Below, piece by piece: positions 19,148 to 31,783 of a DNA stretch of 38,018 nucleotides (positions are counted from its first letter, which is position 1; every line of letters starts with the position of its first letter). The notes beneath the pieces are model-generated. The model searched no databases and had not been told where the DNA came from. It saw nothing but the letters and a program-made list of their open reading frames with translations. The translations under genes and the position numbers were made by a program. The DNA comes from Candidatus Poseidoniia archaeon. GTDB lineage: Archaea > Thermoplasmatota > Poseidoniia > MGIII > CG-Epi1. The stretch spans positions 1 through 38,018 of the forward strand of contig JAPYSZ010000003.1 of NCBI GenBank assembly GCA_029941645.1, written 5' to 3'.

Positions 19148-19957
19148 TTAGTATTCTTCTTCATTATTTGGGAACTCTTTGTTCTTTACATCTTTACAAT
19201 ATCGTTCGATTGCATTGTTAATATCATCAAAGAGATTCAAATATCTGCGTAGGAAACGCGGATTAAATTCATGAGTCATTCCTAACATATCGTGTAGAAC
19301 AAGGACTTGCCCATCAACATCAGCTCCAGCTCCAATTCCTATAATTGGTATGTTTACTGATTTGGCTACTTTTTTTGCCAATTGTGCCGGTATTTTTTCC
19401 AATACGATTGAGAAGCATCCAGCTTTCTCTAAAAATTTAGCATCCTCCACTAATTTTTTAGCTTCTGCATTTTCTTTTGCTCTGACTGTATATGTTCCGA
19501 ACTTATAAATTGACTGAGGTGTTAAACCGAGATGTCCCATAACTGGGATTCCTGCAGTAAGAATTCTTTCAATCGAATCTATTACTTCTGATCCTCCTTC
19601 TAATTTGACAGCATGAGCACCTGATTCTTTCATTATTCTAATTGATGAGCGGAGAGCTTTTTTTGAGTCACCTTGGTAAGAACCAAACGGTAAGTCAATA
19701 ACAATTAGTGATCTTTTTGCAGCCCTTACTACCGATGACGCATGATATATCATATTATCTAAAGTAATAGGTAATGTGGTTTCATGGCCAGCCATTACAT
19801 TTGATGCAGAGTCTCCAACTAATATCACATCAACACCAGCATTATCTACAATTTTAGCCAGTGTGTAATCATAGGCTGTTAACATAGTAATCTTTTCTCC
19901 ATTGTTTTTCATTTCTTGGAGAACATTGGTTGTTATTCTTTTGTAATTTGGGCCCAT
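19148..19957 (-). CDS. panB: 3-methyl-2-oxobutanoate hydroxymethyltransferase (ketopantoate hydroxymethyltransferase)
   Basis: 269 aa. MLTAYDY, ILVGDS, DLPFGSY, VKLEGG and GHLGLTPQS. Confidence 0.93.
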
Positions 19958-20050
19958 GGCATTACCTTTTCCGGGGTCTAGCCATCCAGAGCTGACTAGT
20001 TATTATTTGCCATTTATTGAATCAAAATTAGGTGCATTTACCCGAACTCT

Positions 20051-20058
20051 TTTAATAG
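20051..20058 (+). promoter_or_regulatory. Candidate TATA box for the nuo operon
   Basis: TTTTAATA lies 15-21 nt upstream of in-frame GTG codons at 20073/20079. It sits in the 120-bp AT-rich divergent panB/nuoA region. Confidence 0.35.
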
Positions 20059-20072
20059 GGTTTGACAACAGG

Positions 20073-20438
20073 GTGTTCGTGCTGGGAGACGAGTACGTTC
20101 CTATAGGGATTTTTGCGCTTATTGCGCTTTCATTTCCTGTAATGACATTTTTCATCGGAAGGTTCTTCCGACCCCATAATGACAATGCTCTAAAAAATTC
20201 AACATATGAGTGTGGCGAGGTGCCTGTAGGTGAAGCTCATATACAATTTCATTTCCAATATTATATGTTTGCAATTTTGTTTGTGGTGTTTGATTTAGTC
20301 GTTGTATTCCTAATACTTTGGGTACAAGTATATCTTGACTTAGCAATAGCAGCCAAAGTTGTGATGTTGTTATTTTTACTTTTAACATTATTGGGGTTAT
20401 GGTATGCTTTTAGAAAGGAGGATGTAATCTGGATATGA
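20073..20438 (+). CDS. nuoA: NADH-quinone oxidoreductase (complex I) subunit A
   Basis: YECGE...FHFQYYMFAILFVVFDL is the NuoA/ND3 signature. The ORF-track start 19956 shares its ATG with the divergent panB ATG (CCATGG) and adds 39 non-homologous residues. GTG 20073 or 20079 gives the usual roughly 120-aa protein. Confidence 0.8.
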   Translation: MFVLGDEYVPIGIFALIALSFPVMTFFIGRFFRPHNDNALKNSTYECGEVPVGEAHIQFHFQYYMFAILFVVFDLVVVFLILWVQVYLDLAIAAKVVMLLFLLLTLLGLWYAFRKEDVIWI

Positions 20439-21076
20439 GTTCTAAAGGCGTACGTGGCAATCCAAGCCTTAGAAGAGGTGTCGGTTCTAAAACTACAGAT
20501 TCTGAAAAAATAATGGAAGATCCACCAGCGGGTGATTGGTTAGCATTAAGGTCGGATCAGTTACTCAAATGGATTGATGATGCCGTCTATAATGCAGCTG
20601 AAGCAACAGGTATGCGAGAGGTTGTTGACCGTGTTACACGGCCAATTTTTAATTATGCTCAAAGATTTTCACCTCATCCTTTGCACTTTGGTATAATGTG
20701 TTGTGCCATTGAAATGGGTCAGGCATCAGCTCCAGATCATGATATTGATAGATTAGGTTTGGTCTACCGTTCATCTCCAAGACAGTGTGATATTTTGATA
20801 GTCAATGGCCCCGTCTGTGAAAAATTAAGACCTAAATTGAAGACATTATACGAACAAATGCCTGAGCCGAAGTGGGTAATTGCCATGGGTGAATGCGCAA
20901 TCTCAGGAGGTCCATATTGGGATTCCTATTCTGTTGTTGCAGGTGCAGATACATTTATGCCCGTTGATGTTTACATACCAGGTTGTCCCGTCCGTCCAGA
21001 GGCTTTAATGCATGGTTTTCTAACTTTACAAAAGAAAATTAGAGAGAAAGAGCCAGGTATGTTTCTGAGGAGGTAA
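20435..21076 (+). CDS. nuoB: Complex I subunit B (N2 cluster) with an N-terminal extension of roughly 65 aa
   Basis: FGIMCCAIEM, MGECAISGGPY and IPGCPVRPE supply the four N2 cysteines. GGAGG Shine-Dalgarno; ATGA overlap with nuoA. Confidence 0.92.
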   Translation: MSSKGVRGNPSLRRGVGSKTTDSEKIMEDPPAGDWLALRSDQLLKWIDDAVYNAAEATGMREVVDRVTRPIFNYAQRFSPHPLHFGIMCCAIEMGQASAPDHDIDRLGLVYRSSPRQCDILIVNGPVCEKLRPKLKTLYEQMPEPKWVIAMGECAISGGPYWDSYSVVAGADTFMPVDVYIPGCPVRPEALMHGFLTLQKKIREKEPGMFLRR

Positions 21077-21078
21077 TT

Positions 21079-21558
21079 ATGGAGATAACTTCCTTTAAGC
21101 AGAAATTATCATCCTGTGAGGGTGTTACTGAAGTTTCAGTAATTAGAGATAATGTTGTTAAGTTAAATTTAGGAAATAAAGAATCTAAGGATTTTTTTAT
21201 TAAGTTAAGAGAAGATTATGGTTTTGAGCATTGTTCTTTAATCACTGCGATAGATAACCAACCCGAATTCGAATTAGTTTATCACTTTTCAGCAATAAAT
21301 GGTTCAGTTTTTGTTAAAAACAGCCCCTCTGCAGTAATGGTAGAGGTGCATGTATTTTTAGAACGGGACACGCCTACTATTGAATCCATTTCAGATCTAT
21401 GGGGTGGCGCTAATTGGCATGAAAGAGAGGCTTTTGATATGATGGGGATTTATTTTATTGGGCATCCTGACCTGCGTAGAGTACTTCTACCAGAGGGATT
21501 TGCTGGTCATCCATTAAGAAAGGATTACGTGTATGAGATACACGAGGAGGAGTGGTAA
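21079..21558 (+). CDS. nuoC: Complex I subunit C
   Basis: 159 aa. ANWHEREAFDMMGIYFIGHPDLRR is the NuoC/30-kDa signature. GAGGAGG Shine-Dalgarno. Confidence 0.9.
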   Translation: MEITSFKQKLSSCEGVTEVSVIRDNVVKLNLGNKESKDFFIKLREDYGFEHCSLITAIDNQPEFELVYHFSAINGSVFVKNSPSAVMVEVHVFLERDTPTIESISDLWGGANWHEREAFDMMGIYFIGHPDLRRVLLPEGFAGHPLRKDYVYEIHEEEW

Positions 21559-22652
21559 TGGCTGAAATGTGGATTAGTATGGGTCCTCAGCATCCTATGA
21601 CTCATGGGTTATGGACATTAAAAGTCAAAGTTGATGGAGAAACTATTGTTGATGCAGATCCTGAACTCGGCTATCTCCATCGGTCGGTGGAAAAGATGGG
21701 TGAACGTAGAAAGTATTTCATGAATACTACACTAACTGATAGGTTGTGTTATGCTAGTTCAACAACCTGGACCCATTGTTATGTCAATACAGTAGAAGAA
21801 TTAATGAAGGTAGAAGTTCCCCAGAGGGCAAAGTACATTCGTACAATTATGCTAGAATTACAGAGGCTTGCGTCTCATTTAATGTGGGCTGGTGCTTACA
21901 TGCCTGATTTAGGTCATATTACGGGGGCCTTGTATTTTTGGAGAGATAGAGAATTATTTTTGAATTTATTAGAAGCTCCAAGTGGTAGCCGTTTGTTGTA
22001 TAATTACATAAGGATTGGTGGTGTTAAGAGAGATTTACCTGATGGTTTTGAGGCTAAAACAGAACGAGTTATGAAATTGTTTGAGCAGAGATTAGATGAA
22101 TACGCTGATCTTTTTGAAAATTCTAAAATATTTAGAATGCGTACTGAGGATGTTGGAAAGTTCACAGCTTCACAAGCACAGAATTTGGGAATAACAGGAC
22201 CTAATCTAAGGGGTTGTGGTACTAAATTTGATTTGAGAAAACATGATGCTTATGAGATATATGATGAAGTTGATTGGGATATTCAAACTAGAGAAGCTGG
22301 CCCTGGATATGGTGATTGTTTCAGTAGATATATGGTAAGAATAGATGAAATGAAGGAATCAGTCCGTATTATACGTGATTGTTTCAAGAAAATGCCAGCA
22401 GGTCCAACGCTAGCGTCACAAATCCCCGTTCGTGCACAGGGAGAAGCATTTAGGCGTACTGAAGATTCTAGAGGTGAAGCTCTCATGTATGTTGTTGGTG
22501 ACGGTTCAGATAGGCCTTACAGATGGAAAATAAAGAGCCCGATGTTTACTACAATTTCAGCATGTCCTCATTATCTTAAAGGCTACAAAGTTGCAGACAT
22601 CCCTGCTATAATGGGAAGTATTGACATTTGTATAGGAGAGACAGACAAATGA
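21558..22652 (+). CDS. nuoD: Complex I subunit D
   Basis: MGPQHPMTHG, LGYLHRSVEKMGE, plus a C-terminal GSIDICIGETD(K). ATG 21558 (TAATG overlap) is preferred over the ORF-track GTG 21552. Confidence 0.92.
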   Translation: MAEMWISMGPQHPMTHGLWTLKVKVDGETIVDADPELGYLHRSVEKMGERRKYFMNTTLTDRLCYASSTTWTHCYVNTVEELMKVEVPQRAKYIRTIMLELQRLASHLMWAGAYMPDLGHITGALYFWRDRELFLNLLEAPSGSRLLYNYIRIGGVKRDLPDGFEAKTERVMKLFEQRLDEYADLFENSKIFRMRTEDVGKFTASQAQNLGITGPNLRGCGTKFDLRKHDAYEIYDEVDWDIQTREAGPGYGDCFSRYMVRIDEMKESVRIIRDCFKKMPAGPTLASQIPVRAQGEAFRRTEDSRGEALMYVVGDGSDRPYRWKIKSPMFTTISACPHYLKGYKVADIPAIMGSIDICIGETDK

Positions 22653-23881
22653 GTTTGTTCAGCTTCTGTAAATGGATGGCCGAGTGGACTGCTCAAAAGA
22701 TGCTTATACCTATATTTGAGTTTCAAGAGGGTTTGTTCCCTCCATTTACTAATCCAGCAGGTTCAATTGCGGATTGGTTAGGAACTGATGGCGGTATTAC
22801 GACACTAGCTTGGCTGTACGCAGTTAATATTGCATTTGCAGTGGGAATGACGAATCTGATTTTAGTTATACACTTAGAAAGAAAGATAGCTGCGCGTATC
22901 CAAGATCGTCGAGGGCCGATGCTTTCTTTCCGTTCATTTAGAGAGTTGGGTGAGGACTTAGCAGGTAGTGCACCTTCATGGAAATTTAAGGAGAATTATG
23001 CAGGTATAGGTATCCTTCAGAATCTGGCTGATGGTATCAAAGCAATTGCTAAGGAATTGATTGTCCCTGCTAAAGCGGATAAATTTCTCTTCACAATGGG
23101 TCCTATTATTTTCATTTCATCATCAGTATTTTTGTTAGTTCTTTTTCCTTTATCTGATAGATTTGCAGCTTCTTCAGCTCCTGCAGGTTTGATGGTGATT
23201 ATGGCTGCATTTTCAATTGCACCTATTGGAGTTTTAACTTCTGGTTGGGCTTCCAATAATAAGTATTCAATGATTGGAGGTATGCGTTCAGCAGCTCAGC
23301 TCATGTCATATGAAATTCCTTTGTTGCTGAGTATGGCTGGTGTCTTTCTCATGGCTGGTTCTTATGACCCTGTGGTTATTGTAGAACAGCAGCAAGCATC
23401 TTCTTGGTTCTTTGGGATTCCAATTTGGAATTTCATACCGCAGTTTATAGGTTTTATAGTATTTATGATATGTATTCTAGCTGAAGTTGAAAGGGTTCCT
23501 TTTGATCTTCCTGAAGCTGAAGCTGAATTAGTTGAAGGATGGACTACTGAATACAGTGGAATAAGATATATGTTCTTCTTGATGGCAGAATATATTCGAG
23601 GTTTTGCAGGTGCGGCGGTTGCTACGATTTTATTCTTAGGTGGTTGGGCAGGGCCTTGGCCAATTCCTCCAGAAATTTGGTTTTTAACTAAAGTCTATTT
23701 GATAATAATTTTCTGGATTTTTATTAGATGGTCTGTTCCTAGAATAAGGACCGATCAAATTTTAGAACTCGGATGGAAAAAATTATTGCCTTTATCATTA
23801 ATAAACCTTCTAATCGTAATATTTATGGTTGAGATTTACCCTTATTTTTCAGAAATAGTTAGCCTTCCGGAGGTATTCTAA
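22649..23881 (+). CDS. nuoH: Complex I subunit H with an N-terminal extension and a loop insertion
   Basis: ERKIAARIQDRRGP...LQNLADGIKAIAKE, EVERVPFDLPEAEAELVEGW.TEYSG and RWSVPRIRTDQ. ATG 22649 (ATGA overlap with nuoD) is preferred over 22628. Confidence 0.9.
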   Translation: MSLFSFCKWMAEWTAQKMLIPIFEFQEGLFPPFTNPAGSIADWLGTDGGITTLAWLYAVNIAFAVGMTNLILVIHLERKIAARIQDRRGPMLSFRSFRELGEDLAGSAPSWKFKENYAGIGILQNLADGIKAIAKELIVPAKADKFLFTMGPIIFISSSVFLLVLFPLSDRFAASSAPAGLMVIMAAFSIAPIGVLTSGWASNNKYSMIGGMRSAAQLMSYEIPLLLSMAGVFLMAGSYDPVVIVEQQQASSWFFGIPIWNFIPQFIGFIVFMICILAEVERVPFDLPEAEAELVEGWTTEYSGIRYMFFLMAEYIRGFAGAAVATILFLGGWAGPWPIPPEIWFLTKVYLIIIFWIFIRWSVPRIRTDQILELGWKKLLPLSLINLLIVIFMVEIYPYFSEIVSLPEVF

Positions 23882-23882
23882 A

Positions 23883-24659
23883 ATGAAGAGTGAAAGAGAC
23901 CTTGGCATAATGGATATAATTGTAAATCCAATGAAAGTTACCTTAAAACAGTTTTTCAAGTCAACATTTGGCAAACCTACAACAGTAATGTATCCTCTTG
24001 AAAAAAGAGCTCCGCCCCCTACCTATAGAGGTATGAATGCTGTAATCTGGGATCTTTGTATTGGATGTGGCATATGTGGTGAAGTTTGTCCTAATAAATG
24101 TTTGAAGATGAAACCTGTCGATTTATCGGATGAAGAGCAGGACAAGGCTTGGTATGGTTCACACTTAGCTAAGAGGAAAAGTAAGGCTGAACGACCTGCA
24201 ATTAATTTTGGTCATTGTATGTTTTGTGGTTTTTGTGAGGACTATTGCCCTACTGGTGCCATGACAATGACGGATTTTTATGAATTAGCAGACACAACGC
24301 GTGAGGGTTTGATTTATCCTGCAAGATCTATGAAAGTTGATTTAGAAGACGCTCCTCAATTACCACTTACAAATTATATGATGGAATCTCCTGTTTTAGA
24401 TGCAGATCCTTGTATTGGCTGTAGTAAATGTGTGGATAATTGTCCTACTAATTGTATTATTATGGATCTAGGTCCACAAAATAAGAAAATGAAGAGTGGC
24501 AAAGTTCGAAATGTAGAAAATCCTTACTTTGATTATACTATTTGTATTGGCTGTTCAACTTGTGTTAAGGTATGTCCTGCAGACTGTTTGCATATGGAAC
24601 CTATTAGCAATTCTAGTTCCAGTGGTTTAAGTGAGGAGGGTGCTTCTAACGAGGCTTGA
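23883..24659 (+). CDS. nuoI: Complex I subunit I (2x[4Fe-4S]) fused to an additional C-terminal 2x[4Fe-4S] ferredoxin domain
   Basis: 258 aa with four CxxCxxCxxxCP motifs: CIGCGICGEVCP, CMFCGFCEDYCP, CIGCSKCVDNCP and CIGCSTCVKVCP. Canonical NuoI has two. Confidence 0.9.
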   Translation: MKSERDLGIMDIIVNPMKVTLKQFFKSTFGKPTTVMYPLEKRAPPPTYRGMNAVIWDLCIGCGICGEVCPNKCLKMKPVDLSDEEQDKAWYGSHLAKRKSKAERPAINFGHCMFCGFCEDYCPTGAMTMTDFYELADTTREGLIYPARSMKVDLEDAPQLPLTNYMMESPVLDADPCIGCSKCVDNCPTNCIIMDLGPQNKKMKSGKVRNVENPYFDYTICIGCSTCVKVCPADCLHMEPISNSSSSGLSEEGASNEA

Positions 24660-24928
24660 TATTTTTGGCTTTAGATCTCCTTGTTTTCTGGTTTTTAGCC
24701 GGTTTAATCTTAGCTGCAGCTTGGGCAGTGGTTAATGGGAACGATATTGTTCACTCAGTCGTTTGGTTATCTACTGTATTTCTTTTGACAGCAGGCCTAT
24801 TCATTTTGGCAGAGGCTGAGTTTTTAGCAGTTATTCAGGTTTTAGTCTATGTGGGTGCTATTTCGGTTGTTATAATTTTTGGAATTATGCTAACTAAAAG
24901 AACGTTGAAGGGAGGAGAAGATGTCTAA
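24656..24928 (+). CDS. nuoJ: Complex I subunit J, N-terminal part (TM1-3)
   Basis: 90 aa. AEAEFLAVIQVLVYVGAISVVIIFGIML is the NuoJ/ND6 TM3 signature. TTG start overlaps the nuoI TGA. Confidence 0.85.
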   Translation: MIFLALDLLVFWFLAGLILAAAWAVVNGNDIVHSVVWLSTVFLLTAGLFILAEAEFLAVIQVLVYVGAISVVIIFGIMLTKRTLKGGEDV

Positions 24929-25709
24929 CCGTACAGTAATTTGGGTTCGGGATGCCTTAGTGATATTTTTTTCATTTTATGTTGTTTTTGCTGTAGCTTC
25001 TGTTCCGTGGGCTAATCTGAAAGTTTCCCCTCCTCTTCCAGAGACTTGTGAAACGGGTTGTCCACCTGTAGTTAGCTTTCCAGAAAATGGATATTATCAT
25101 TATCAGAATTCTGTTACTTTTGAGTGGAGTTCAGTTTCTGTTGGTTACAGAATTGTAGTTACTGAAGTTGATACTGGCGATGTAAAAATGGATAAGAATA
25201 TAACTAATGAAGTAACTTCAACAACGTCTAGATTACCAGCAGGTACTTATCTTACAAGAGTATATTATACGGGAATTGCAGGTTCAACATTTAGCACATA
25301 TCCTATATTAAAATCTGAATTTGTAACTATTGAAACTTCTTCAAAGATTACTATGGTTTGGCCTGAGGTTAGTGTAACTTATGGTTTAGAAATTAGGGTT
25401 ATTAAGGAGGCGGAAAATGAATTGCCTGAAATTGTTAAAGTCTATGAAGTTAATATGTTAGAGGAATCATCCTACACTTATTCTGATTTTGAAAATGGTA
25501 AATCTTATTCTTGGTCAGTTTATGTCCAGGATTCAAAAGGATATACTTCGGCGTCATCTCCTTTTCATGTAGTTAATATAGATACTACTAAATTTTTGGC
25601 TTTTGAACTTTTTAATAATTGGGAAGTCCCTTTCATTCTTTTAGGAGTTATGATGGTTATAGCAATGCAAGCAGGTGTTTTTCTGGCAAGGGAGGAACTA
25701 AATGATTGA
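24921..25709 (+). CDS. nuoJ: Complex I subunit J, C-terminal part (TM4 + TM5), with a soluble tandem-repeat insertion of roughly 190 aa between the helices
   Basis: 262 aa. N-terminal TM (VIFFSFYVVFAVASV). C-terminal LAFELFNNWEVPFILLGVMMVIAMQAGVFLAREE resembles the NuoJ C-terminus. The middle holds two roughly 85-aa repeats (VTFEWSSVSVGYRIVV... and ITMVWPEVSVTYGLEIRV...). GGGAGG Shine-Dalgarno; 8-nt overlap with the upstream ORF. Confidence 0.75.
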   Translation: MSNRTVIWVRDALVIFFSFYVVFAVASVPWANLKVSPPLPETCETGCPPVVSFPENGYYHYQNSVTFEWSSVSVGYRIVVTEVDTGDVKMDKNITNEVTSTTSRLPAGTYLTRVYYTGIAGSTFSTYPILKSEFVTIETSSKITMVWPEVSVTYGLEIRVIKEAENELPEIVKVYEVNMLEESSYTYSDFENGKSYSWSVYVQDSKGYTSASSPFHVVNIDTTKFLAFELFNNWEVPFILLGVMMVIAMQAGVFLAREELND

Positions 25710-26004
25710 TCCAATTAATTTTGTTGTATTCTCTTCTATTTTATTGCTGATTGGAGCATATGGAGTAATTCGAAATAAGAATGCTATTGTTGTTTTGATG
25801 TCTGTTGAAATAATGCTTACAGCAGCCAACGTAAATTTTATAGCTTTTTCAAGCTTTTACAATGATTTATCAGGTCAAATAGTTGCGTTATTCGTTACAA
25901 CAATTGCTGCGGCTGAAGTTGCAATAGGTTTGGCAATATTGTTGAGTTTGTTTAAACAAAGAGATACTATTGAGTTAGATTTACTGAATAGTTTGAGGTG
26001 GTAA
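25702..26004 (+). CDS. nuoK: Complex I subunit K
   Basis: 100 aa, 3 TM. LMSVEIMLTAANVNF and TIAAAEVAIGLAILL carry the conserved Glu residues. Confidence 0.92.
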   Translation: MIDPINFVVFSSILLLIGAYGVIRNKNAIVVLMSVEIMLTAANVNFIAFSSFYNDLSGQIVALFVTTIAAAEVAIGLAILLSLFKQRDTIELDLLNSLRW

Positions 26005-26005
26005 A

Positions 26006-28186
26006 ATGTCAAATAATGATAATCAAAATTCTGAATCTGACTTGTTGAGGTTTATTTCATTAAGTTTGGCAGCTTCACTTATTCTGTTTTATTTTTCTAC
26101 AGATGGTTTGGCAGATGATTTCGTTAGTGTAGCTTGGATGATTCCTGTTTTTCCTATTGTTTCATTCGTGGCAATTTTGTTATTTGGGCACATGGATTCA
26201 AGAAAAGGTGGTTCTTTTGCTCTAGCAGGTATTGGTTTATCTGCAGTATTTTCTTTAGCCATTGCCTACGATGTTCTGATACAAAATTCATTACATGGAG
26301 AGTATGTAGAATCAACTAGAACTTGGTTTAGTGGTGCGACTTATTCTTTTGATTTTGGTACGTATGTTGATGCCTTAGCTGCGTTGTTGTTGTTAGTAGT
26401 CGGTTTGGTTTCCTATCTTGTCATTGTTTTTTCAACAAGTTATATGGAGGAAGAAGGCGATCGCCAAGTAAGATACTTTGCAGAAATTTCTCTTTTCGTT
26501 GGAGTTATGCTCGGTTTGGTCGTAGCAAATTCATTCTTATTAATGTTTATTTTCTGGGAGTTAGTTGGTGTTTGTTCTTATCTTCTAATTGGTTTCTGGT
26601 ATGAGAAGCCATCCGCAGCTTCGGCAGCTAAAAAGGCGTTTTTGGTTACACGAGTAGGTGATGTGTTTTTGCTGATGGGGTTAGTTATACTATACAGTAC
26701 ATTCGGTACACTTAGATATTCAGAATTGTTCGATAACCCTGAAGATTTAGCAGCTAATGCTACAGAATTGAAATGGGCTACACTTTGTATATTCGGTGGT
26801 GCTGTTGGCAAATCGGCTCAATTTCCGTTACATGTATGGCTTCCAGACGCCATGGAAGGCCCTACTACAGTATCAGCACTGATACATGCTGCAACGATGG
26901 TCAAGGCTGGTGTTTTTTTGGTTGCTCGAGCTTATCCTTTGATTGTTCATAGTCCTGATACAGCAATTTACATTGCAGTAACGGGGGGTGTTACAGCATT
27001 CATCGCAGCTAGCATGGCTATGGTGATGTATGATATCAAAAGGGTTCTCGCTTATTCGACAATTTCTCAATTGGGGTATATGTTCCTTGCATTAGGTACA
27101 GGCGCTTGGGCTGTCTGGCATGCTGCAGAAAATGGAATAGAAGATCATGCTCAAGGGTATACTGCAGGTTTATTCCATTTGATGAATCATGCATTTTTCA
27201 AGGCTTTACTTTTCCTTGGTTCTGGTGCTGTTATACATTCAGTACACACTCAGGATATGCGAGAGATGGGTGGTTTACGCAAAGGTATGCCCATTACATC
27301 TGCGGCTATGGGTTTGGGTGTTCTTTCCATTGCTGGAGTTCCATTTTTCTCAGGTTTTTGGTCTAAGGATGAGATTCTTGAAGCAGTTCATCATAATTCC
27401 GAGGCAGAAGGTATTTTCGGTATATTGTGGTGGCTTGCACTGTTGACTGCAGCCATGACGGCTTTCTATATGACTCGATTATGGATGATGACTTTCAGTG
27501 GTCCGGAAAATCGTGTTGTTGAAGAAATGGTAGAGTCTAAAGACCATGCTGAAACGGGTAATTGGGAACTCAAGTCAAAGACGATTAAGTCCCATGCGCA
27601 CGAGGCACCTCTTGCTATGACTGCACCTCTTATGATTTTAGCTTCTCTTGCCGTCTTTTCTGGATTTTCGTTATTCCTTGGTGAGGGTTTTGGATCTAGA
27701 GTGTATTATGGCCATCATGCAGATTCTGAGTCTATGATTCAATGGTCTATCTTAGATCATATTCTAACATCATCTTTGACTTATCTTTCAGTTATTGTTG
27801 GTTTGAGTGGTGTTACTTTGGGTTATTTGTTCTATAAACGTGATTCTGAAGGTCAAACTACTTTCTCACCAGCGTTTGTAGAATCTTTTGCTGTAACCAG
27901 TTACTTGCATGTTTTTCTTTCGAATAGACTTTACATGTCAAAATTTTTTGATTGGTTTGGTATGAGAACCTGGGATACTGTTGCTAGGGCATGTGATTGG
28001 TTTGATATTTACATCATTGACGGTATAGTGAATGGTGTGGCTTCAGCTTCACAGTTTTTCAGTAGTCAAGTGAGAAAACTTAACTCAGGTTTTACAGGTC
28101 ATTATGCTTCACTTACAGTTGGTGGTTTGGGAGCTCTTGTAGTTATTACTAGAATAATAATGCCCTTTATGGGATGGTCACTATGA
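26006..28186 (+). CDS. nuoL: Complex I subunit L (antiporter-like, long C-terminal lateral helix region) with an extra N-terminal hydrophobic segment
   Basis: 726 aa. WELVGVCSYLLIGFWY, GKSAQFPLHVWLPDAMEGPT.VSALIHAATMV, AYSTISQLGYMF and HAFFKALLFL. GAGGTGG Shine-Dalgarno. Confidence 0.93.
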   Translation: MSNNDNQNSESDLLRFISLSLAASLILFYFSTDGLADDFVSVAWMIPVFPIVSFVAILLFGHMDSRKGGSFALAGIGLSAVFSLAIAYDVLIQNSLHGEYVESTRTWFSGATYSFDFGTYVDALAALLLLVVGLVSYLVIVFSTSYMEEEGDRQVRYFAEISLFVGVMLGLVVANSFLLMFIFWELVGVCSYLLIGFWYEKPSAASAAKKAFLVTRVGDVFLLMGLVILYSTFGTLRYSELFDNPEDLAANATELKWATLCIFGGAVGKSAQFPLHVWLPDAMEGPTTVSALIHAATMVKAGVFLVARAYPLIVHSPDTAIYIAVTGGVTAFIAASMAMVMYDIKRVLAYSTISQLGYMFLALGTGAWAVWHAAENGIEDHAQGYTAGLFHLMNHAFFKALLFLGSGAVIHSVHTQDMREMGGLRKGMPITSAAMGLGVLSIAGVPFFSGFWSKDEILEAVHHNSEAEGIFGILWWLALLTAAMTAFYMTRLWMMTFSGPENRVVEEMVESKDHAETGNWELKSKTIKSHAHEAPLAMTAPLMILASLAVFSGFSLFLGEGFGSRVYYGHHADSESMIQWSILDHILTSSLTYLSVIVGLSGVTLGYLFYKRDSEGQTTFSPAFVESFAVTSYLHVFLSNRLYMSKFFDWFGMRTWDTVARACDWFDIYIIDGIVNGVASASQFFSSQVRKLNSGFTGHYASLTVGGLGALVVITRIIMPFMGWSL

Positions 28187-30036
28187 GATACTTTTTTGCC
28201 TTGTTATTAGTTATACTTTTACTTCCTGTAGCCTCAGGCGAGGATCATACTGTGATGGTTGGAACTGAATCTGATACTTATGTTTTCAGTCCTGCCGTTC
28301 TTAAAATTTCACCAGGTGATAATGTGACATTTCTCTGGACGCCAGGTATGCCTCATAATGTAGCCGAAGTCGAGAATTCTGAATCTTTAACTTACAACGA
28401 CGGATTCCGTTCTGGTGAACCTCAAGACGGAGGTGAATGGGCACTTCCATCTAATTTGACTGCAGAAGATGGAACACTCTATTACGTATGTGAACCGCAT
28501 GCAGGAATGAAGATGCGAGGAGAAATCATCATTCAGAGTGCTCCTGAAATCGCTATGGAATTTGGGGACTTTCCTTGGCTTTCTTATCTATTGGTTTTCC
28601 CTCTAATAGGTGCCTTATGGACCTTTGGTTTTAGAGAAAATACTAATGCGCCAAGAATCATAGCATTATTTACAACTTTATTCACATTGATTATTTCAAT
28701 TATTGTATTTGTAAAAACAGGAAATAAGTCTGGATATAGTTTGATGGAGCAATATGATTGGGCCCCTAATTTTGGTATTTCATTACTTCTTGGAGTTGAT
28801 GGTCTTAGTTCGCCAATGGTTTTGTTAACAGGTATAATAGGACCTTTAACGGTTATATTTGCTTGGCATGAGAAAGAGAAACCAGCTTTGTTCTTCGTAC
28901 TTCTCTTAGTTATGCAAACAGCTCTTTTTGGTGTGTTTATTACTCTAGATTATTTTGTTTTCTATATATTTTGGGAGATTGTTTTGATACCAATGTTTTT
29001 CCTTATAGCCATTTGGGGTGGGGATAATCGACGCTATGCCTCAATTAAATTTTTCATTTACACTTTTACAGCATCACTAGTAATGTTAATTGGATTTATG
29101 GCACTTTATTTCGAAACAGGTGGTGAAACTTTTTCTATGATAGAAATAGCTAAGCAAAATGGCAATTTTTCTGAAGATTTTCAAAAGTGGGTTTTTGCAG
29201 CTTTATTTATTGGATTTGCAGTTAAGATTCCTTCAGTACCTTGGCACACTTGGTTGCCAGACGCTCATGTTGAGGCACCTACAGCAGGATCTATCCTTCT
29301 AGCAGGAGTCATGCTGAAAATGGGACTTTATGGTCTTATTCGTGCTGCTTTACCAGTTGTACCGCTTGGGGCTGAATATTTTGTTCCAGTTATGGTTGTT
29401 TTAGCTATAGTTTCCATACTTTACGGAGCGGCATTAAGTCTGGGTCAGACAGATTTAAAGAAATTAGTTGCATATTCTAGTGTTTCTCATATGGGTGTGG
29501 CGTTATTGGGTGTAGCTACAATGACCGAATTGGGTCTAGCAGGTGCAGTTTTCATGATGTTTGCCCACGGTATTCTAAGCCCAGCCATGTTTATGGTTGC
29601 AGGAGTTCTTTTGCATCAAGTAGGAACAAGAGACATTCCAAAACTAGGGGGTCTTGCTAAACATCAACCTAATACTGCTGGAATCTTTGTTGTTATATTC
29701 TTGGGAAGTCTTGGTCTTCCAGGTATGGCTGTTTTCGTTGCAGAATTAGCTGTTTTTATTGCTTTCTTCCAGTCTCATGGTTATTGGTTGCTTCTTCCTA
29801 TATTTGGTATGGTGCTTACTGCAGGTTATCATTTATGGGCATTACAGAGGGCCGTATTCGGAGTGGATAGTGAACAAATAGATATGTCTGATGTTCATGA
29901 GGCACCATGGTATGAAATGTACCCTATGTTTTCTATTATCCTATTAGCAGTTTTCTTTGGTATATTTCCGCATTATCTTATGGATCCTATATCTGTAGCA
30001 TGTTATGACATCTTGAATTTTATGGGGGCTATCTAA
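28183..30036 (+). CDS. nuoM: Complex I subunit M with an N-terminal signal peptide + cupredoxin (type-1 copper) domain fusion
   Basis: N-terminus MRYFFALLLVILLLPVASG, then ...PGDNVTFLWTPGMPHNV...YYVCEPHAGMKM (His, Cys-x2-His-x2-Met). The NuoM core follows: FWEIVLIPMF, KIPSVPWHTWLPDAHVEAPT.GSILLAGV.LK and AYSSVSHMG. ATG 28183 (ATGA overlap with nuoL) is preferred over 28174. Confidence 0.9.
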   Translation: MRYFFALLLVILLLPVASGEDHTVMVGTESDTYVFSPAVLKISPGDNVTFLWTPGMPHNVAEVENSESLTYNDGFRSGEPQDGGEWALPSNLTAEDGTLYYVCEPHAGMKMRGEIIIQSAPEIAMEFGDFPWLSYLLVFPLIGALWTFGFRENTNAPRIIALFTTLFTLIISIIVFVKTGNKSGYSLMEQYDWAPNFGISLLLGVDGLSSPMVLLTGIIGPLTVIFAWHEKEKPALFFVLLLVMQTALFGVFITLDYFVFYIFWEIVLIPMFFLIAIWGGDNRRYASIKFFIYTFTASLVMLIGFMALYFETGGETFSMIEIAKQNGNFSEDFQKWVFAALFIGFAVKIPSVPWHTWLPDAHVEAPTAGSILLAGVMLKMGLYGLIRAALPVVPLGAEYFVPVMVVLAIVSILYGAALSLGQTDLKKLVAYSSVSHMGVALLGVATMTELGLAGAVFMMFAHGILSPAMFMVAGVLLHQVGTRDIPKLGGLAKHQPNTAGIFVVIFLGSLGLPGMAVFVAELAVFIAFFQSHGYWLLLPIFGMVLTAGYHLWALQRAVFGVDSEQIDMSDVHEAPWYEMYPMFSIILLAVFFGIFPHYLMDPISVACYDILNFMGAI

Positions 30037-31526
30037 TGGACGATTCTATCTTCTTTTTGCCTGAAATATTGATGGTAGTGAGTATAATAGGTATTCCAGC
30101 CCTTTATATTTTGACAGAGAATAATAAGTCATATTCCATATGTTCTAATATTTCTTTAGGTTTTGCATTCATGTTTTTAGTTCTTTCATGGTATTACCCT
30201 GATTTCTTATCGTTAGATAAAAGTGGTTTGGTATCCTATGATCATTTTAGAGTAGATGATTTTTCTCAATTATTCAAGATTATCTTTGTTTTAACAGCTT
30301 TAGTAGTTTCTATTGTAAGTACTTCTTACTTTGATGATGAAGAGCCTCATCAAGCTGAGTATTACACACTCCTTCTTTCCAGTACTTTGGGAATGCTGGT
30401 TGTTGCCTCAGCTACTGATTTCTTAACTCTGTTTTTGGGAATAGAAATATCTGCGTTTAGCAGTTATGCAATGGTTGCTTTTAGAAAACAGGATGATAAA
30501 TCAACGGAAGCTGGAGCAAAATATCTTTTGATTGGTGCATTTTCTTCAGGTTTAACTCTTTATGGCATTTCATTATTGTATGCTATTACTGGTTCTTTGA
30601 CATTTGATGGTGTTAGTTCATTTATGCACGGAATTAGCAATGGAGTTGTTGTTGGAGATTTTACTGAAGTAATATTTATTTCTTGTTTGTTCATAATGGC
30701 AGGTTTAGGTTTTAAGATAGCAGTAGTTCCATTCCATGCTTGGGCTCCTGATGTTTATCAGGGAGCACCTACGCCAGTTACTACTCTTCTTGCTGCTGCC
30801 AGTAAGGCGATGGGTTTCATTGCAGTTTTTAGAGTATTTGCGTTTACTTTAGAATCAGTTTCAGAGGAATGGAAATTAGTTTTGGGAATTATTGCTTTAG
30901 CTTCTATGACTGTAGGTAATTTGGCAGCTATCTCACAGAAGGATATTGGGAGAATGTTGGCATATTCTTCAATTGCTCAAGCTGGTTATATTATGATTGC
31001 AATTCCAGCTCTTACTGAAGAAGCAATGTCCGGTGCTATTGCTCATACATTAGTACATGCATTTATGAAAGGTGGAGCCTTTGTCATAGTTGGATGTATA
31101 GGGGCGGTAGGTTTGGGTTATAATTTGGAATCATATAAGGGATTGGCAAAGAGATCCCCGTTGTTAGCACTTTCAATGACAGTTTGTTTACTATCTTTGG
31201 TTGGTATACCTCCTTTTGCAGGTTTTATTAGTAAATTTTTCTTATTCTATGGAACTTTACAGGCAGGGCTTGCTGGAGAATCTTGGATTATTGCTTTGGT
31301 AATTGGAGGAATTCTAAATTCAGCATTGTCTCTCTATTATTATTTGAAAGTTATAAGATATATGTATCTCTATGATCCCGAAGATTCGGGCGAGGTTGAG
31401 TTCCCTAATTCAGTTAGGTACATCTCCTTTGGAGTAATTCTGTTATTAGCAGTATTCTTCCCATTATATTGGGAATCTCTTTTTGAACTTTGTAAGGAAG
31501 CTTCAATAGCTTTGATTAATGGATGA
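30036..31526 (+). CDS. nuoN: Complex I subunit N
   Basis: 496 aa. GIEISAFSSYAMVAF, FKIAVVPFHAWAPDVYQGAPTPVT and AYSSIAQAGY. TAATG overlap with nuoM. Confidence 0.92.
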   Translation: MDDSIFFLPEILMVVSIIGIPALYILTENNKSYSICSNISLGFAFMFLVLSWYYPDFLSLDKSGLVSYDHFRVDDFSQLFKIIFVLTALVVSIVSTSYFDDEEPHQAEYYTLLLSSTLGMLVVASATDFLTLFLGIEISAFSSYAMVAFRKQDDKSTEAGAKYLLIGAFSSGLTLYGISLLYAITGSLTFDGVSSFMHGISNGVVVGDFTEVIFISCLFIMAGLGFKIAVVPFHAWAPDVYQGAPTPVTTLLAAASKAMGFIAVFRVFAFTLESVSEEWKLVLGIIALASMTVGNLAAISQKDIGRMLAYSSIAQAGYIMIAIPALTEEAMSGAIAHTLVHAFMKGGAFVIVGCIGAVGLGYNLESYKGLAKRSPLLALSMTVCLLSLVGIPPFAGFISKFFLFYGTLQAGLAGESWIIALVIGGILNSALSLYYYLKVIRYMYLYDPEDSGEVEFPNSVRYISFGVILLLAVFFPLYWESLFELCKEASIALING

Positions 31527-31783
31527 TTGATAAGGAAAGTAAGGAATATATTCAATTCGAAAACTTGTGGTCAGGAACTACACCCAAGGGGACAAATAAA
31601 AGTAAAAGAGATACATTTCGGTCACGGATGAAAAATTCTTGTCAACAACAAGGCATAGGATTCAGTAAAATAAATTCATTTAGGATATTTTCAGGTGAAA
31701 TAAAGGCTTTAGATTCTGATACTCATAAGGTTGGAGATGTTAAAGTAACTAAACCACCTAGAAGACATCTGCGTGGAATTTAG
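31523..31783 (+). CDS. Hypothetical basic 86-aa protein trailing the nuo operon
   Basis: ATGA overlap with the nuoN stop. It fills an otherwise 231-nt gap in a gap-free genome, and the plus strand is purine-rich like other soluble-protein genes here. No motif recognised. Its last 26 nt overlap the convergent polyprenyl synthase. Confidence 0.35.
   Translation: MIDKESKEYIQFENLWSGTTPKGTNKSKRDTFRSRMKNSCQQQGIGFSKINSFRIFSGEIKALDSDTHKVGDVKVTKPPRRHLRGI

What the first reader, a model, noticed from the sequence alone, without database searches (positions are those of the whole stretch)
25014..25589. Split NuoJ whose second half carries two tandem beta-sandwich-like repeats in the TM4-TM5 loop
NuoJ is encoded as two overlapping ORFs. 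The first (90 aa) is TM1-3. The second has an N-terminal TM and a C-terminal NuoJ-like helix (FELFNNWEVPFILLGVMMVIAMQAGVFLAREE). Between them lie about 190 soluble residues: a Cys pair (ETCETGCPP) and two ~85-aa repeats sharing a pattern. The repeats read VTFEWSSVSVGYRIVVTEV...LPAGTYLTRVYY and ITMVWPEVSVTYGLEIRVI...FENGKSYSWSVYV. This W..V..Y.I.V ... G.(S/T)Y.W.V pattern is typical of Ig/FN3-like beta-sandwiches. In known complex I structures the TM4-TM5 loop of NuoJ lies on the P side, so the insert would be extracellular, on the same face as the NuoM cupredoxin.
Basis: partly seen in the sequence, partly recalled or inferred. Interest (0 to 1): 0.65.

Follow-up and report, generated by a model that had tools for sequence, protein, structure and literature searches.

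The report
Split NuoJ with outward-facing FN3 pair
In a marine archaeon of the Marine Group II/III class, a core membrane subunit of respiratory complex I (NuoJ) is encoded in two pieces. The second piece carries two fibronectin-type-III-like domains in a loop that should face outside the cell, a built-in external add-on not described before for this enzyme.

Summary
ORF 24656-24928 is NuoJ TM1-3. ORF 24921-25709 (262 aa) is NuoJ TM4 and TM5 with about 190 residues between them.

Cutting out residues 41-217 in silico and joining the rest to J1 gives one end-to-end match to the NuoJ models: PF00499 positions 2-146 of 146 (94.7 bits) and NF005168 positions 6-168 of 172.

The insert is two homologous domains (repeat against repeat, hhalign E 4e-6). 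AlphaFold2 models them as two 7-stranded beta-sandwiches (pLDDT 80-90), and Foldseek matches them to tandem FN3 pairs. Known NuoJ topology, the positive-inside rule, a conserved Cys pair and a conserved N-x-T sequon all place the insert outside the cell.

The architecture was present in all 34 full-length genes recovered from Poseidoniia (MGII and MGIII) genomes. It is absent from other Thermoplasmatota, whose J2 is 75 aa. It is inherited vertically and is under purifying selection (dN/dS 0.18).

It co-occurs with a cupredoxin fused to NuoM and an extra ferredoxin domain on NuoI, but shows no specific co-evolution with the cupredoxin.

The most likely role is a self-encoded structural or scaffolding ectodomain, which is an inference. 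This is a new variant of a known kind. Public databases label the protein "hypothetical".

The parts
24656..24928 (+). nuoJ1: the N-terminal half of NuoJ (TM1-TM3), 90 aa from TTG 24656, or 87 aa if translation starts at TTG 24665
   Evidence: PF00499 positions 2-62, E 1.2e-19. NF005025 split-NuoJ model, E 4e-18. Cyanobacterial NdhG 6hum_G residues 9-83, E 2e-11. Three hydrophobic segments.
24910..24928 (+). J1/J2 junction: GGAGG Shine-Dalgarno sequence inside the last J1 codons (KGGEDV*) and an 8-nt overlap ATGTCTAA (translational coupling)
   Evidence: Sequence. J1 ends in ...LKGGE(D/N)V, or a close variant, in nearly all related loci.
24921..25709 (+). nuoJ2: the C-terminal half of NuoJ (TM4, ectodomain, TM5), 262 aa
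   Evidence: There are 101 homologues of 46-100% identity. It lies between nuoJ1 and nuoK in all 36 related loci.
24930..25001 (+). TM4 (residues 4-27), a signal-anchor helix preceded by R4 and R10
   Evidence: AF2 helix 4-27. Hydropathy. The deletion construct aligns to NF005168 positions 101-168, which cover TM4 and TM5.
25002..25073 (+). Pro-rich linker (residues 28-51) containing the C43-x3-C47 motif (nt 25047-25061)
   Evidence: C43, G46, C47 and P49 are invariant in 87 MGIII-type sequences. The Cys pair is absent from the MGII-type orthologues. Model confidence here is lower (pLDDT 55-76).
25074..25334 (+). FN3-like domain 1 (residues 52-138)
   Evidence: AF2 strands between residues 51 and 137. 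Foldseek tandem FN3 hits. Conserved core residues F67, W69, Y76, L105, Y110. N93-x-T95 sequon present in 32 of 37 sequences.
25335..25583 (+). FN3-like domain 2 (residues 139-221)
   Evidence: AF2 strands 144-220. PF00041 residues 138-216, E 0.03. Titin FN3 domains in the PDB profile search. Homologous to domain 1, hhalign E 4.3e-6.
25584..25694 (+). Surface amphipathic helix (residues 223-232) and TM5 (residues 235-258) of NuoJ
   Evidence: AF2 helices. PF00499 positions 106-145. Aligns to NdhG residues 135-169. This is the most conserved part of J2 (mean column identity 0.83; dN/dS 0.035).
25702..26004 (+). nuoK, overlapping the J2 stop by 8 nt. Its GGGAGG Shine-Dalgarno sequence lies in the J2 codons for the invariant ...AREE
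28174..28578 (+). N-terminal signal-peptide-like segment plus cupredoxin domain fused to NuoM. This is context: the other predicted outward-facing add-on of the same enzyme.
   Evidence: PF00127 residues 27-120, E 1e-11. Found in every related locus that reaches nuoM; the one apparent exception, L011, is an assembly gap of Ns.

Best explanation
ORFs 24656-24928 and 24921-25709 together encode subunit NuoJ (the ND6 homologue) of an 11-subunit complex-I-type enzyme (nuoABCDHIJ1J2KLMN, without nuoEFG). The organism is a Poseidoniia (MGIII-clade) archaeon.

The gene is split in the cytoplasmic TM3-TM4 loop, as in many archaea. What is unusual is the TM4-TM5 loop, which canonically lies on the outer (P) face. 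Here it has been expanded from about 15 residues to about 195 by a Pro-rich linker and two tandemly duplicated FN3-type beta-sandwich domains.

Inferred biogenesis: TM4 acts as an N-in signal anchor. The loop is exported and the two FN3 domains fold outside the cell. FN3-2 is joined by only about 2 residues to the surface amphipathic helix that leads into TM5, so the pair should sit directly on the outer face of the membrane arm. That position would be near NuoK, NuoN and TM16 of NuoL.

Inferred role: a self-encoded 'supernumerary' ectodomain that stabilises or scaffolds the outer face of the complex. This would be analogous to the intermembrane-space accessory subunits of mitochondrial complex I or the lumenal PnsL subunits of chloroplast NDH. 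It is not expected to take part in electron or proton transfer.

The architecture, distribution and selection are shown by the analyses. The topology is strongly inferred. The structural or scaffold function is inference only.
For: NuoJ identity and insert position:
- J1 matches PF00499 positions 2-62. J2 residues 215-254 match positions 106-145.
- After in-silico deletion of residues 41-217, J1 plus J2 aligns to PF00499 positions 2-146 of 146 at 94.7 bits (J1 alone gives 71). It aligns to NF005168 positions 6-168 of 172 at 98.8 bits.
- The deleted J2 alone matches NF005168 positions 101-168 at E 2e-6.
- Orthologous 75-77-aa J2 proteins without an insert sit between an 87-aa J1 and nuoK in other Thermoplasmatota.

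FN3 pair:
- hhalign of repeat 1 against repeat 2 gives E 4.3e-6.
- The AF2 model has pLDDT 78 overall and 80-90 in the sandwiches, with two 7-strand domains.
- Foldseek finds tandem FN3 pairs at E 2e-5 to 1e-3 and probability about 0.99.
- The PDB profile search hits titin FN3 domains.
- PF00041 is hit by 76 of 87 members.
- The family profile hits giant multi-repeat proteins. In two that were examined, the repeats pass the PF00041 threshold.

Outside location:
- The ND6 C-terminus contacts the hydrophilic arm in bacterial complex I.
- K and R residues flank the cytoplasmic ends: TKRTLK at the J1 C-terminus, R4 and R10 in J2, and R at the J2 C-terminus.
- The Cys pair is invariant in the MGIII clade.
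- N-x-S/T sequons average 3.2 observed against 2.1 expected, and one sequon is conserved in 32 of 37 sequences.

Functional constraint and history:
- The two-domain architecture is present in all 34 full-length Poseidoniia genes recovered.
- Core aromatic residues are at least 95% conserved across MGII and MGIII.
- dN/dS is 0.18 in the insert and 0.035 in TM5.
- Insert distances track NuoL distances with r = 0.90, which indicates vertical inheritance.
Against: - No structure or biochemistry exists, and the organism is uncultured.
- J2 alone falls below the curated thresholds of PF00499 (14.3 against 33.2 bits) and PF00041 (14.9 against 25 bits).
- The relative orientation of the two FN3 domains, and their contacts with other subunits, could not be examined.
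- The insert is the fastest-evolving part of the operon (mean pairwise distance 0.56, against 0.16-0.26 for core subunits). Conserved positions are mostly fold-core residues, so no conserved binding surface was identified.
- A purely structural role is a default inference, not a tested one.
Confidence: 0.75

Rival explanations
1. Docking module. The FN3 pair is a protein-protein interaction platform on the outer face. It would hold the NuoM-fused cupredoxin, or another respiratory complex (the cytochrome b/Rieske unit, the terminal oxidase, or soluble halocyanin/plastocyanin), against complex I. That would make complex I the hub of a copper-protein-based supercomplex.
For: The FN3 pair and the NuoM cupredoxin are both class-wide in Poseidoniia and both absent from the outgroup operons. 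Both are predicted to face outside. MGII archaea rely on halocyanin/plastocyanin-type carriers and lack a canonical bc1 complex (PMC6336850; PMC9723583). FN3 domains commonly mediate protein-protein contacts (general knowledge).
Against: A mirror-tree test shows no specific co-evolution between the insert and the cupredoxin. Raw r is 0.63, but the partial r controlling for NuoL is 0.11. Conserved residues are mainly fold-core. No interface could be modelled.
Confidence: 0.12
2. Envelope tether. The FN3 pair binds the S-layer, glycans or another envelope component. It would position or immobilise complex I in the membrane of a wall-less or S-layer-only cell.
For: The closest sequence relatives of the repeats are repeats of giant multi-repeat proteins of 1,000-6,000 aa, which look like secreted or surface proteins. 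A sequon is conserved and sequons are mildly enriched. The insert evolves fast, as is typical of surface-exposed domains.
Against: No carbohydrate-binding or S-layer-homology signature was found in the Pfam scans. The taxonomic origin of the giant proteins was not established. Nothing in the gene neighbourhood points to envelope functions.
Confidence: 0.08
3. Metal or redox site. The invariant C43-x3-C47 together with H60, at the base of FN3-1, would form a copper/zinc-binding or thiol-redox site (Sco- or CuA-like spacing). It might serve copper delivery to the neighbouring cupredoxin, rather than being a simple structural disulfide.
For: C43, G46, C47, P49 and H60 are invariant in 87 sequences. 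H60 is at least 95% conserved across the whole class. A blue-copper domain is fused to NuoM in the same operon.
Against: The Cys pair is completely absent from the MGII-type orthologues, which keep the FN3 pair and the cupredoxin. The motif lies in a lower-confidence linker. No metal-binding family was hit. The resemblance to Sco and CuA motifs is from memory only and was not tested.
Confidence: 0.07
4. Unrelated inserted gene. ORF 24921-25709 would be a bitopic surface protein that landed between nuoJ and nuoK, and the real NuoJ would lack TM4-5.
For: J2 alone is below the Pfam and NCBIfam thresholds for NuoJ. Public databases call it 'hypothetical protein'.
Against: The deletion construct aligns end to end with the NuoJ models. 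The C-terminus aligns to NdhG residues 135-169. The 75-aa outgroup J2 proteins match 84-96% of the deletion construct and occupy the same operon slot. The 8-nt overlaps with both neighbours are consistent with translational coupling.
Confidence: 0.02

Closest known systems
Split archaeal NuoJ (nuoJ1/nuoJ2; NCBIfam NF005025/PRK06433 for the first half, NF005030/PRK06439 for the 72-residue second half). The 87 + 75 aa pair in other Thermoplasmatota is an example.
   Same: The split point is the same, in the cytoplasmic TM3-TM4 loop. The operon slot between nuoI and nuoK is the same, as is the 3 + 2 TM arrangement. The TM5 motif is conserved.
   Different: The canonical second half is 72-77 aa with a short TM4-TM5 loop. 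Here the loop carries about 190 extra residues folded as two FN3 domains, so J2 is 262 aa.
ND6/NuoJ TMH4 and the TMH4-5 loop in solved complex I structures
   Same: It is the same helix pair and the same outer-face loop. The literature describes TMH4 and its flanking loops as the most variable part of ND6. TMH4 is shifted between bacteria and mammals, and mammals have a beta-hairpin in the TMH4-5 loop. This fits the region tolerating both a split and an insertion.
   Different: In the papers consulted, the loop is described as a variable loop or beta-hairpin, with no folded domain mentioned.
Accessory subunits on the P side of eukaryotic and plastid complex I relatives: intermembrane-space subunits of mitochondrial complex I, and the lumenal PnsL subcomplex of chloroplast NDH
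   Same: They are soluble domains added to the outer face of the membrane arm and are thought to stabilise or scaffold the complex (general knowledge). This is a functional analogy only.
   Different: Those are separate polypeptides of unrelated folds. Here the add-on is fused into a core subunit loop and is FN3-type. No homology is implied.
Prokaryotic FN3 domains (PF00041) in giant multi-repeat proteins
   Same: The sequence pattern is the same: P-x-N/D ... L-x-W-x-x-V ... Y-x-L/I-x-V ... Y-Y/S-W-x-V. The family profile hits such proteins with up to 25 matched stretches. In two examined examples the repeats pass the PF00041 threshold.
   Different: Those are soluble or surface-anchored repeat arrays. 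Here exactly two copies are embedded between two transmembrane helices of a respiratory enzyme.

Membership tests
NuoJ / ND6 (Pfam PF00499 Oxidored_q3; NCBIfam NF005168 and relatives) | Sequence match to the family model over its full length and above the curated threshold | tested here: met
   This holds for the J1 + J2 pair with the insert removed: PF00499 positions 2-146 of 146 at 94.7 bits (threshold 33.2), E 5.5e-27. J1 alone scores 71 bits. J2 alone scores 14.3 bits, below threshold. The NCBIfam equivalog cut-offs (for example 154 bits) are not reached; the best is 98.8 bits.
NuoJ / ND6 | Five transmembrane helices, with TM5 carrying the conserved ...PF.L..V....A...GV.LAR.. motif | tested here: met
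   There are 3 hydrophobic segments in J1 and 2 in J2. AF2 gives helices 4-27 and 235-258. The TM5 segment aligns to NdhG residues 135-169.
NuoJ / ND6 | Gene located between nuoI and nuoK in a nuo operon | tested here: met
   The operon order is nuoA-B-C-D-H-I-J1-J2-K-L-M-N. The order I-J1-J2-K-L(-M) is the same in the 36 related loci, as far as each locus extends.
NuoJ / ND6 | Physical incorporation into complex I next to NuoK/NuoA/NuoH | not testable with these tools
   This needs a structure or a multimer prediction.
Archaeal split NuoJ, second half (NCBIfam NF005030 / PRK06439, 72 positions) | Match above the curated cut-off (121 bits) and a short (about 70-80 aa) protein | tested here: not met
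   The score is 17.7 bits for the native protein. With the insert removed it is 21.1 bits, matching positions 13-71 of 72. The protein is 262 aa. It is homologous to, but not a member of, that equivalog family.
Fibronectin type III domain (Pfam PF00041) | Sequence match above the gathering threshold (25 bits) | tested here: not met
   The window protein scores 14.9 bits, E 0.031. Of 87 family members, 76 hit at E<0.1, the best at 4.1e-6. A transitive link exists through multi-repeat proteins that do pass the threshold.
Fibronectin type III domain (fold level) | Seven-stranded beta-sandwich with a conserved Trp (strand B) and a Tyr corner (strands C and F), superposable on solved FN3 domains | tested here: met
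   AF2 gives two 7-strand sandwiches. Foldseek's top 50 PDB hits are nearly all tandem FN3 pairs, with probability 0.9-1.0. W69/W147, Y76/Y154 and Y110/Y196 are at least 95% conserved. This rests on a predicted model, not an experimental one.
Tandem duplication (the two domains being homologous to each other) | Significant profile-profile similarity between the two halves | tested here: met
   hhalign probability 86.8%, E 4.3e-6 over 52 columns. The single-sequence Smith-Waterman comparison is only marginal (8 of 500 shuffles reach it).

The most novel reading that the evidence does not exclude
Poseidoniia complex I has built its own extracellular module from fused domains: the FN3 pair in NuoJ2 and a type-1-copper cupredoxin on NuoM. 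An extra 2x[4Fe-4S] domain on NuoI sits on the cytoplasmic side. In this reading the FN3 pair is the docking scaffold that holds the tethered copper carrier, and partner complexes, against the membrane arm. Complex I would then be the physical hub of a cupredoxin-based respiratory supercomplex in some of the ocean's most abundant archaea.
Probability: 0.12. Interest if true: 0.8.

Novelty: new variant of a known kind. Interest (0 to 1): 0.55.

Why it matters
Complex I core subunits are among the most conserved membrane proteins known. Prokaryotic enzymes are usually regarded as the minimal form, and accessory mass is seen as a eukaryotic or plastid feature supplied by separate subunits.

Here a whole class of abundant marine archaea (MGII and MGIII) has instead inserted folded extracellular domains directly into a core subunit loop. 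It sits alongside other class-specific fusions: a cupredoxin on NuoM and a ferredoxin domain on NuoI.

This has three consequences:
- It is an independent, genetically simple example of how complex I acquires 'supernumerary' structure.
- It marks ND6 TMH4 and its loops as the permissive site for such additions.
- It raises testable questions about how the copper-protein-based respiratory chain of these uncultured organisms is organised.

There is also a practical point. The protein is annotated 'hypothetical' in public records, so automated reconstructions may see an incomplete NuoJ. A published survey calls the MGII complex I 'canonical' (PMC6336850).

Tried and rejected
- Concatenated J1+J2 structure prediction. 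I built alignment A4 to place the FN3 pair relative to TM1-5.
- Homologue search with J1. It returned only near-identical Poseidoniia J1 proteins (83-99% identity) and no outgroups. It was still useful, showing that the split is universal and that J1 is far more conserved than J2.
- PDB sequence searches. The whole-family profile found no NuoJ chain. The C-terminal 51 residues alone gave only a weak NdhG hit (E 0.78). The deletion-construct HMM scans were the decisive test instead.
- Co-evolution of the FN3 insert with the NuoM cupredoxin, by mirror tree. The partial r is 0.11, so there is no support, and the docking hypothesis was downgraded.
- Apparent lack of the cupredoxin in locus L011. 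This turned out to be an assembly gap of Ns, so it is not a counter-example.
- A class-wide metal site formed by C43, C47 and H60. It was rejected as universal because the MGII-type orthologues lack both cysteines.
- Literature searches for any prior description: NuoJ with Marine Group II; Poseidoniales with complex I; nuoJ1/nuoJ2; FN3 with NuoJ; MGIII with NADH dehydrogenase; NuoM with cupredoxin. Nothing relevant was found. The library does not hold most subscription journals.
- The origin of the giant FN3-repeat proteins was not pursued, so it remains open whether the domains were captured from the lineage's own surface proteins.
Full report
**What is in the sequence**

The region lies inside a 12-gene nuo operon on the + strand: nuoA 19956-20438, nuoB, nuoC, nuoD 21552-22652, nuoH, nuoI 23883-24659, nuoJ1 24656-24928, nuoJ2 24921-25709, nuoK 25702-26004, nuoL, nuoM 28174-30036 and nuoN 30036-31526. 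There are no nuoEFG genes in the operon.

J1 and J2 overlap by 8 nt (ATGTCTAA). A GGAGG sits 5 nt upstream of the J2 ATG, inside the last J1 codons. J2 and nuoK also overlap by 8 nt, and a GGGAGG lies in the codons for the invariant ...AREE. No ORF of 50 aa or more lies on the opposite strand under J2.

All the quoted peptide strings are present.

**Is J2 the second half of NuoJ?**

J1 matches PF00499 positions 2-62 (E 1.2e-19) and the NCBIfam models for the short first half of a split archaeal NuoJ. It also matches residues 9-83 of cyanobacterial NdhG in the PDB (E 2e-11).

On its own, J2 gives only sub-threshold hits with its last 40-50 residues. These are PF00499 positions 106-145 (E 0.035), NF005167 (E 0.001) and the 72-position split-J2 model NF005030 (E 0.0027).

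The decisive test was an in-silico deletion. Removing residues 41-217 lets J2 align to NF005168 positions 101-168 (E 2e-6) and to PF00499 positions 80-146 (E 9e-5). Joining that construct to J1 gives one uninterrupted alignment to PF00499 positions 2-146 of 146 (94.7 bits, against 71 for J1 alone). It also aligns to NF005168 positions 6-168 of 172 (98.8 bits, against 70.3).

The N-terminal helix of J2 is therefore NuoJ TM4 and the C-terminal helix is TM5. The roughly 190 extra residues sit exactly in the TM4-TM5 loop.

A profile of insert-deleted J2 sequences also retrieved 75-77-aa proteins from other Thermoplasmatota. They cover 84-96% of the construct at about 30% identity, and one is named NuoJ by NCBI. 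In their contigs they lie between an 87-aa J1 and nuoK.

**Is the insert two beta-sandwich repeats?**

Within the single sequence the two halves are only marginally similar. The Smith-Waterman score is 45, against 29.3 +/- 5.9 for shuffles, and 8 of 500 shuffles reach it. Profile-profile comparison of the two sub-alignments from 87 homologues gives probability 86.8% and E 4.3e-6.

AlphaFold2 with the 87-sequence alignment gives mean pLDDT 78 and pTM 0.59. Blocks within the sandwiches are mostly at pLDDT 80-90. The model has the following elements:

| Element | Residues |
|---|---|
| Helix (TM4) | 4-27 |
| Less confident linker | about 28-50 |
| Sandwich 1, about seven strands | about 51-137 |
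| Sandwich 2, about seven strands | 144-220 |
| Short surface helix | 223-232 |
| Helix (TM5) | 235-258 |

Foldseek against the PDB returns almost exclusively tandem FN3 pairs: LAR, fibronectin, integrin beta4, titin and cytokine receptors. E-values run from 2e-5 to 1e-3, with probability 0.9-1.0. The high rmsd over both domains suggests that the inter-domain angle in the model differs from extended tandems. That is my inference, because I had no coordinates.

Sequence evidence agrees:
- The PDB profile search hits titin FN3 domains.
- PF00041 is hit by 76 of 87 members at E<0.1, the best at 4e-6.
- An exhaustive HMM search of 1.84 billion representative proteins finds only about four full-length J2 clusters. 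Beyond those it finds hundreds of giant proteins with up to 25 matched stretches.
- In two of those giant proteins that I examined, the repeats pass the PF00041 threshold.

The window protein itself is below the PF00041 threshold (14.9 against 25 bits). Family membership therefore rests on fold and on transitive homology.

**Which side of the membrane?**

In solved complex I structures the ND6/NuoJ C-terminus lies on the cytoplasmic or matrix side. In Paracoccus its extension reaches up onto the hydrophilic arm. The TMH3-4 loop lies beneath a hydrophilic-arm-associated subunit (NDUFA9), so the TMH4-5 loop is on the P side.

The charges agree with this. The J1 C-terminus reads TKRTLK, J2 begins MSNRTVIWVR, and J2 ends LAREE. 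All of these are at predicted cytoplasmic ends.

Three further points are consistent with export:
- A Cys pair (C43-x3-C47) is invariant in 87 sequences.
- An N93-x-T95 sequon is present in 32 of 37 sequences. Sequons are mildly enriched, at 3.2 observed against 2.1 expected.
- The repeats are related to repeats of giant, probably secreted, proteins.

The outside location is strongly inferred but not demonstrated.

**Distribution and evolution**

A scan of GTDB species genomes found 36 loci. All those with an informative taxonomic label belong to Poseidoniia or to marine 'Euryarchaeota'/Thermoplasmatota. The closest relatives are MGIII MAGs and single-cell genomes, at 60-86% identity. The window therefore comes from an MGIII-clade archaeon.

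A more distant set of loci (31-36% identity, 238-241 aa, one labelled Thalassarchaeaceae, which is MGIIb) has the same TM4, two-FN3, TM5 architecture but lacks the Cys pair.

All 34 full-length genes have two domains. Every J1 recovered is a separate short protein, so the split was seen wherever J1 was recovered.

The FN3 core aromatic residues (F67, W69, Y76, Y110, W147, Y154, Y196, W198), together with P54, H60 and K142, are at least 95% conserved across the class.

Rates of change differ sharply between parts of the operon:

| Region | Measure | Value |
|---|---|---|
| J1, NuoK, NuoI | identity to the window | 72-100% |
| J2 | identity to the window | 31-86% |
| FN3 insert | mean pairwise distance | 0.56 |
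| NuoK, NuoI, NuoL | mean pairwise distance | 0.16-0.26 |
| FN3 insert | dN/dS against L002 (dS about 0.55) | 0.18 |
| TM4 | dN/dS against L002 | 0.10 |
| TM5 | dN/dS against L002 | 0.035 |

The insert is thus the fastest-evolving part, yet it remains under purifying selection. Its distances track NuoL distances (r = 0.90), which indicates vertical inheritance rather than repeated capture.

In the two outgroup Thermoplasmatota operons examined, J2 is 75 aa and NuoM is about 490-510 aa. NuoI is 136 aa in the one operon that has it. None of these proteins carries an FN3 pair, a cupredoxin or an extra ferredoxin domain.

**Context**

The same enzyme carries two more class-specific fusions.
- NuoM has an N-terminal signal-like segment followed by a cupredoxin (PF00127, E 1e-11). 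It has His ... Cys-x2-His-x2-Met ligand spacing.
- NuoI has a second 2x[4Fe-4S] module and is 258 aa, against 136 aa in the outgroup.

The cupredoxin is present in every related locus that reaches nuoM. The one apparent exception is an assembly gap.

A mirror-tree test finds no specific co-evolution between the FN3 insert and the cupredoxin once phylogeny is controlled (partial r = 0.11).

**Mechanism**

Shown by the analyses:
- The protein is a split NuoJ.
- A tandem FN3 pair sits in the TM4-TM5 loop.
- The pair is class-wide, vertically inherited and under purifying selection.

Strongly inferred:
- The pair faces outside the cell.
- It is anchored at both ends to NuoJ. FN3-2 is joined almost directly to the surface helix before TM5. 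In bacterial enzymes TMH4 lies toward TM16 of NuoL.

Inferred only:
- The pair acts as a built-in accessory ectodomain that stabilises or scaffolds the outer face. This would be analogous to accessory subunits on the P side of mitochondrial complex I and chloroplast NDH.

The region of ND6 involved (TMH4 and its loops) is described as the most variable and probably least mechanistically critical part of the subunit. This fits its tolerating both a gene split and a large insertion.

The rivals remain open at low probability each: docking of the cupredoxin or of partner complexes, envelope tethering, and a Cys/His metal site. The 'unrelated inserted gene' reading is effectively excluded.

**Novelty**

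The split is ordinary, since NCBIfam has models for both halves. A folded FN3 tandem inside a core complex I subunit was not found in any of the literature searches. Public records call the protein 'hypothetical', and a survey of MGII genomes describes their complex I as canonical.

I rate it a new variant of a known kind, of moderate interest. It would be of higher interest if the outer-face domains prove to organise a copper-protein respiratory supercomplex.

Noticed in passing
window 28174-28578 (NuoM residues 1-135): NuoM carries an N-terminal hydrophobic signal-like segment followed by a cupredoxin domain (PF00127, E 1e-11). The type-1 copper ligand pattern is ...PHNV... and CEPHAGM (Cys-x2-His-x2-Met). 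It is present in all related Poseidoniia loci that reach nuoM and absent from outgroup NuoM proteins (490-507 aa).
   Followed up: partly
window 23883-24659 (NuoI, 258 aa): NuoI has four Fer4 stretches. Beyond the canonical N6a/N6b pair there is a second 2x[4Fe-4S] ferredoxin module at about residues 170-240. It is conserved at 75-94% identity over the full length in all related loci. The outgroup NuoI is 136 aa. It may be an alternative electron-input module in an enzyme that lacks NuoEFG.
   Followed up: partly
window 19956-31526 (whole nuo operon): Most core subunits are longer than in the outgroup Thermoplasmatota operon L037: A 160 against 119 aa, B 213/166, C 159/143, H 417/367, I 258/136, J2 262/75, L 726/about 656, M 620/490, N 496/470. 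This suggests a general accretion of extra segments onto core subunits in this lineage.
   Followed up: no
window 32759-34036 (-) and 31758-32756 (-): Immediately downstream of the operon, on the opposite strand, lies a PAS-domain/UbiA prenyltransferase fusion (425 aa) next to a polyprenyl synthetase. This could be sensor-coupled quinone or prenyl-lipid biosynthesis adjacent to complex I.
   Followed up: no
proteins P0062, P0078 (385-387 aa) and P0061 (288 aa), alignment A1 columns 45-75 and 186-305: Some J2 homologues carry further insertions in the same loop. One is an acidic segment of about 125 aa, containing Cys, between FN3-1 and FN3-2. Another is a Cys-rich segment of about 31 aa before the CxxxC motif. 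The loop seems to be a hot spot for additional modules.
   Followed up: no
window 24910-24928 and 25685-25709: The Shine-Dalgarno sequences for J2 (GGAGG) and nuoK (GGGAGG) are embedded in the last codons of the preceding genes (KGGEDV* and AREELND*). The strong conservation of these C-terminal peptides may partly reflect ribosome-binding-site constraints.
   Followed up: partly
J2 residues 93-95 (window 25197-25205): An N-x-T sequon is conserved in 32 of 37 J2 sequences across MGII and MGIII. It is a candidate N-glycosylation site on FN3-1.
   Followed up: partly
locus L011, about 6180-6300: A run of Ns (assembly gap or masking) replaces the start of nuoM. This mimicked absence of the cupredoxin in the tblastn table.
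   Followed up: yes
window 24656 versus 24665: The J1 start is ambiguous. TTG 24656 overlaps the nuoI stop. TTG 24665 would give an 87-aa product beginning MALDLL, which matches the length of many homologues.
   Followed up: partly
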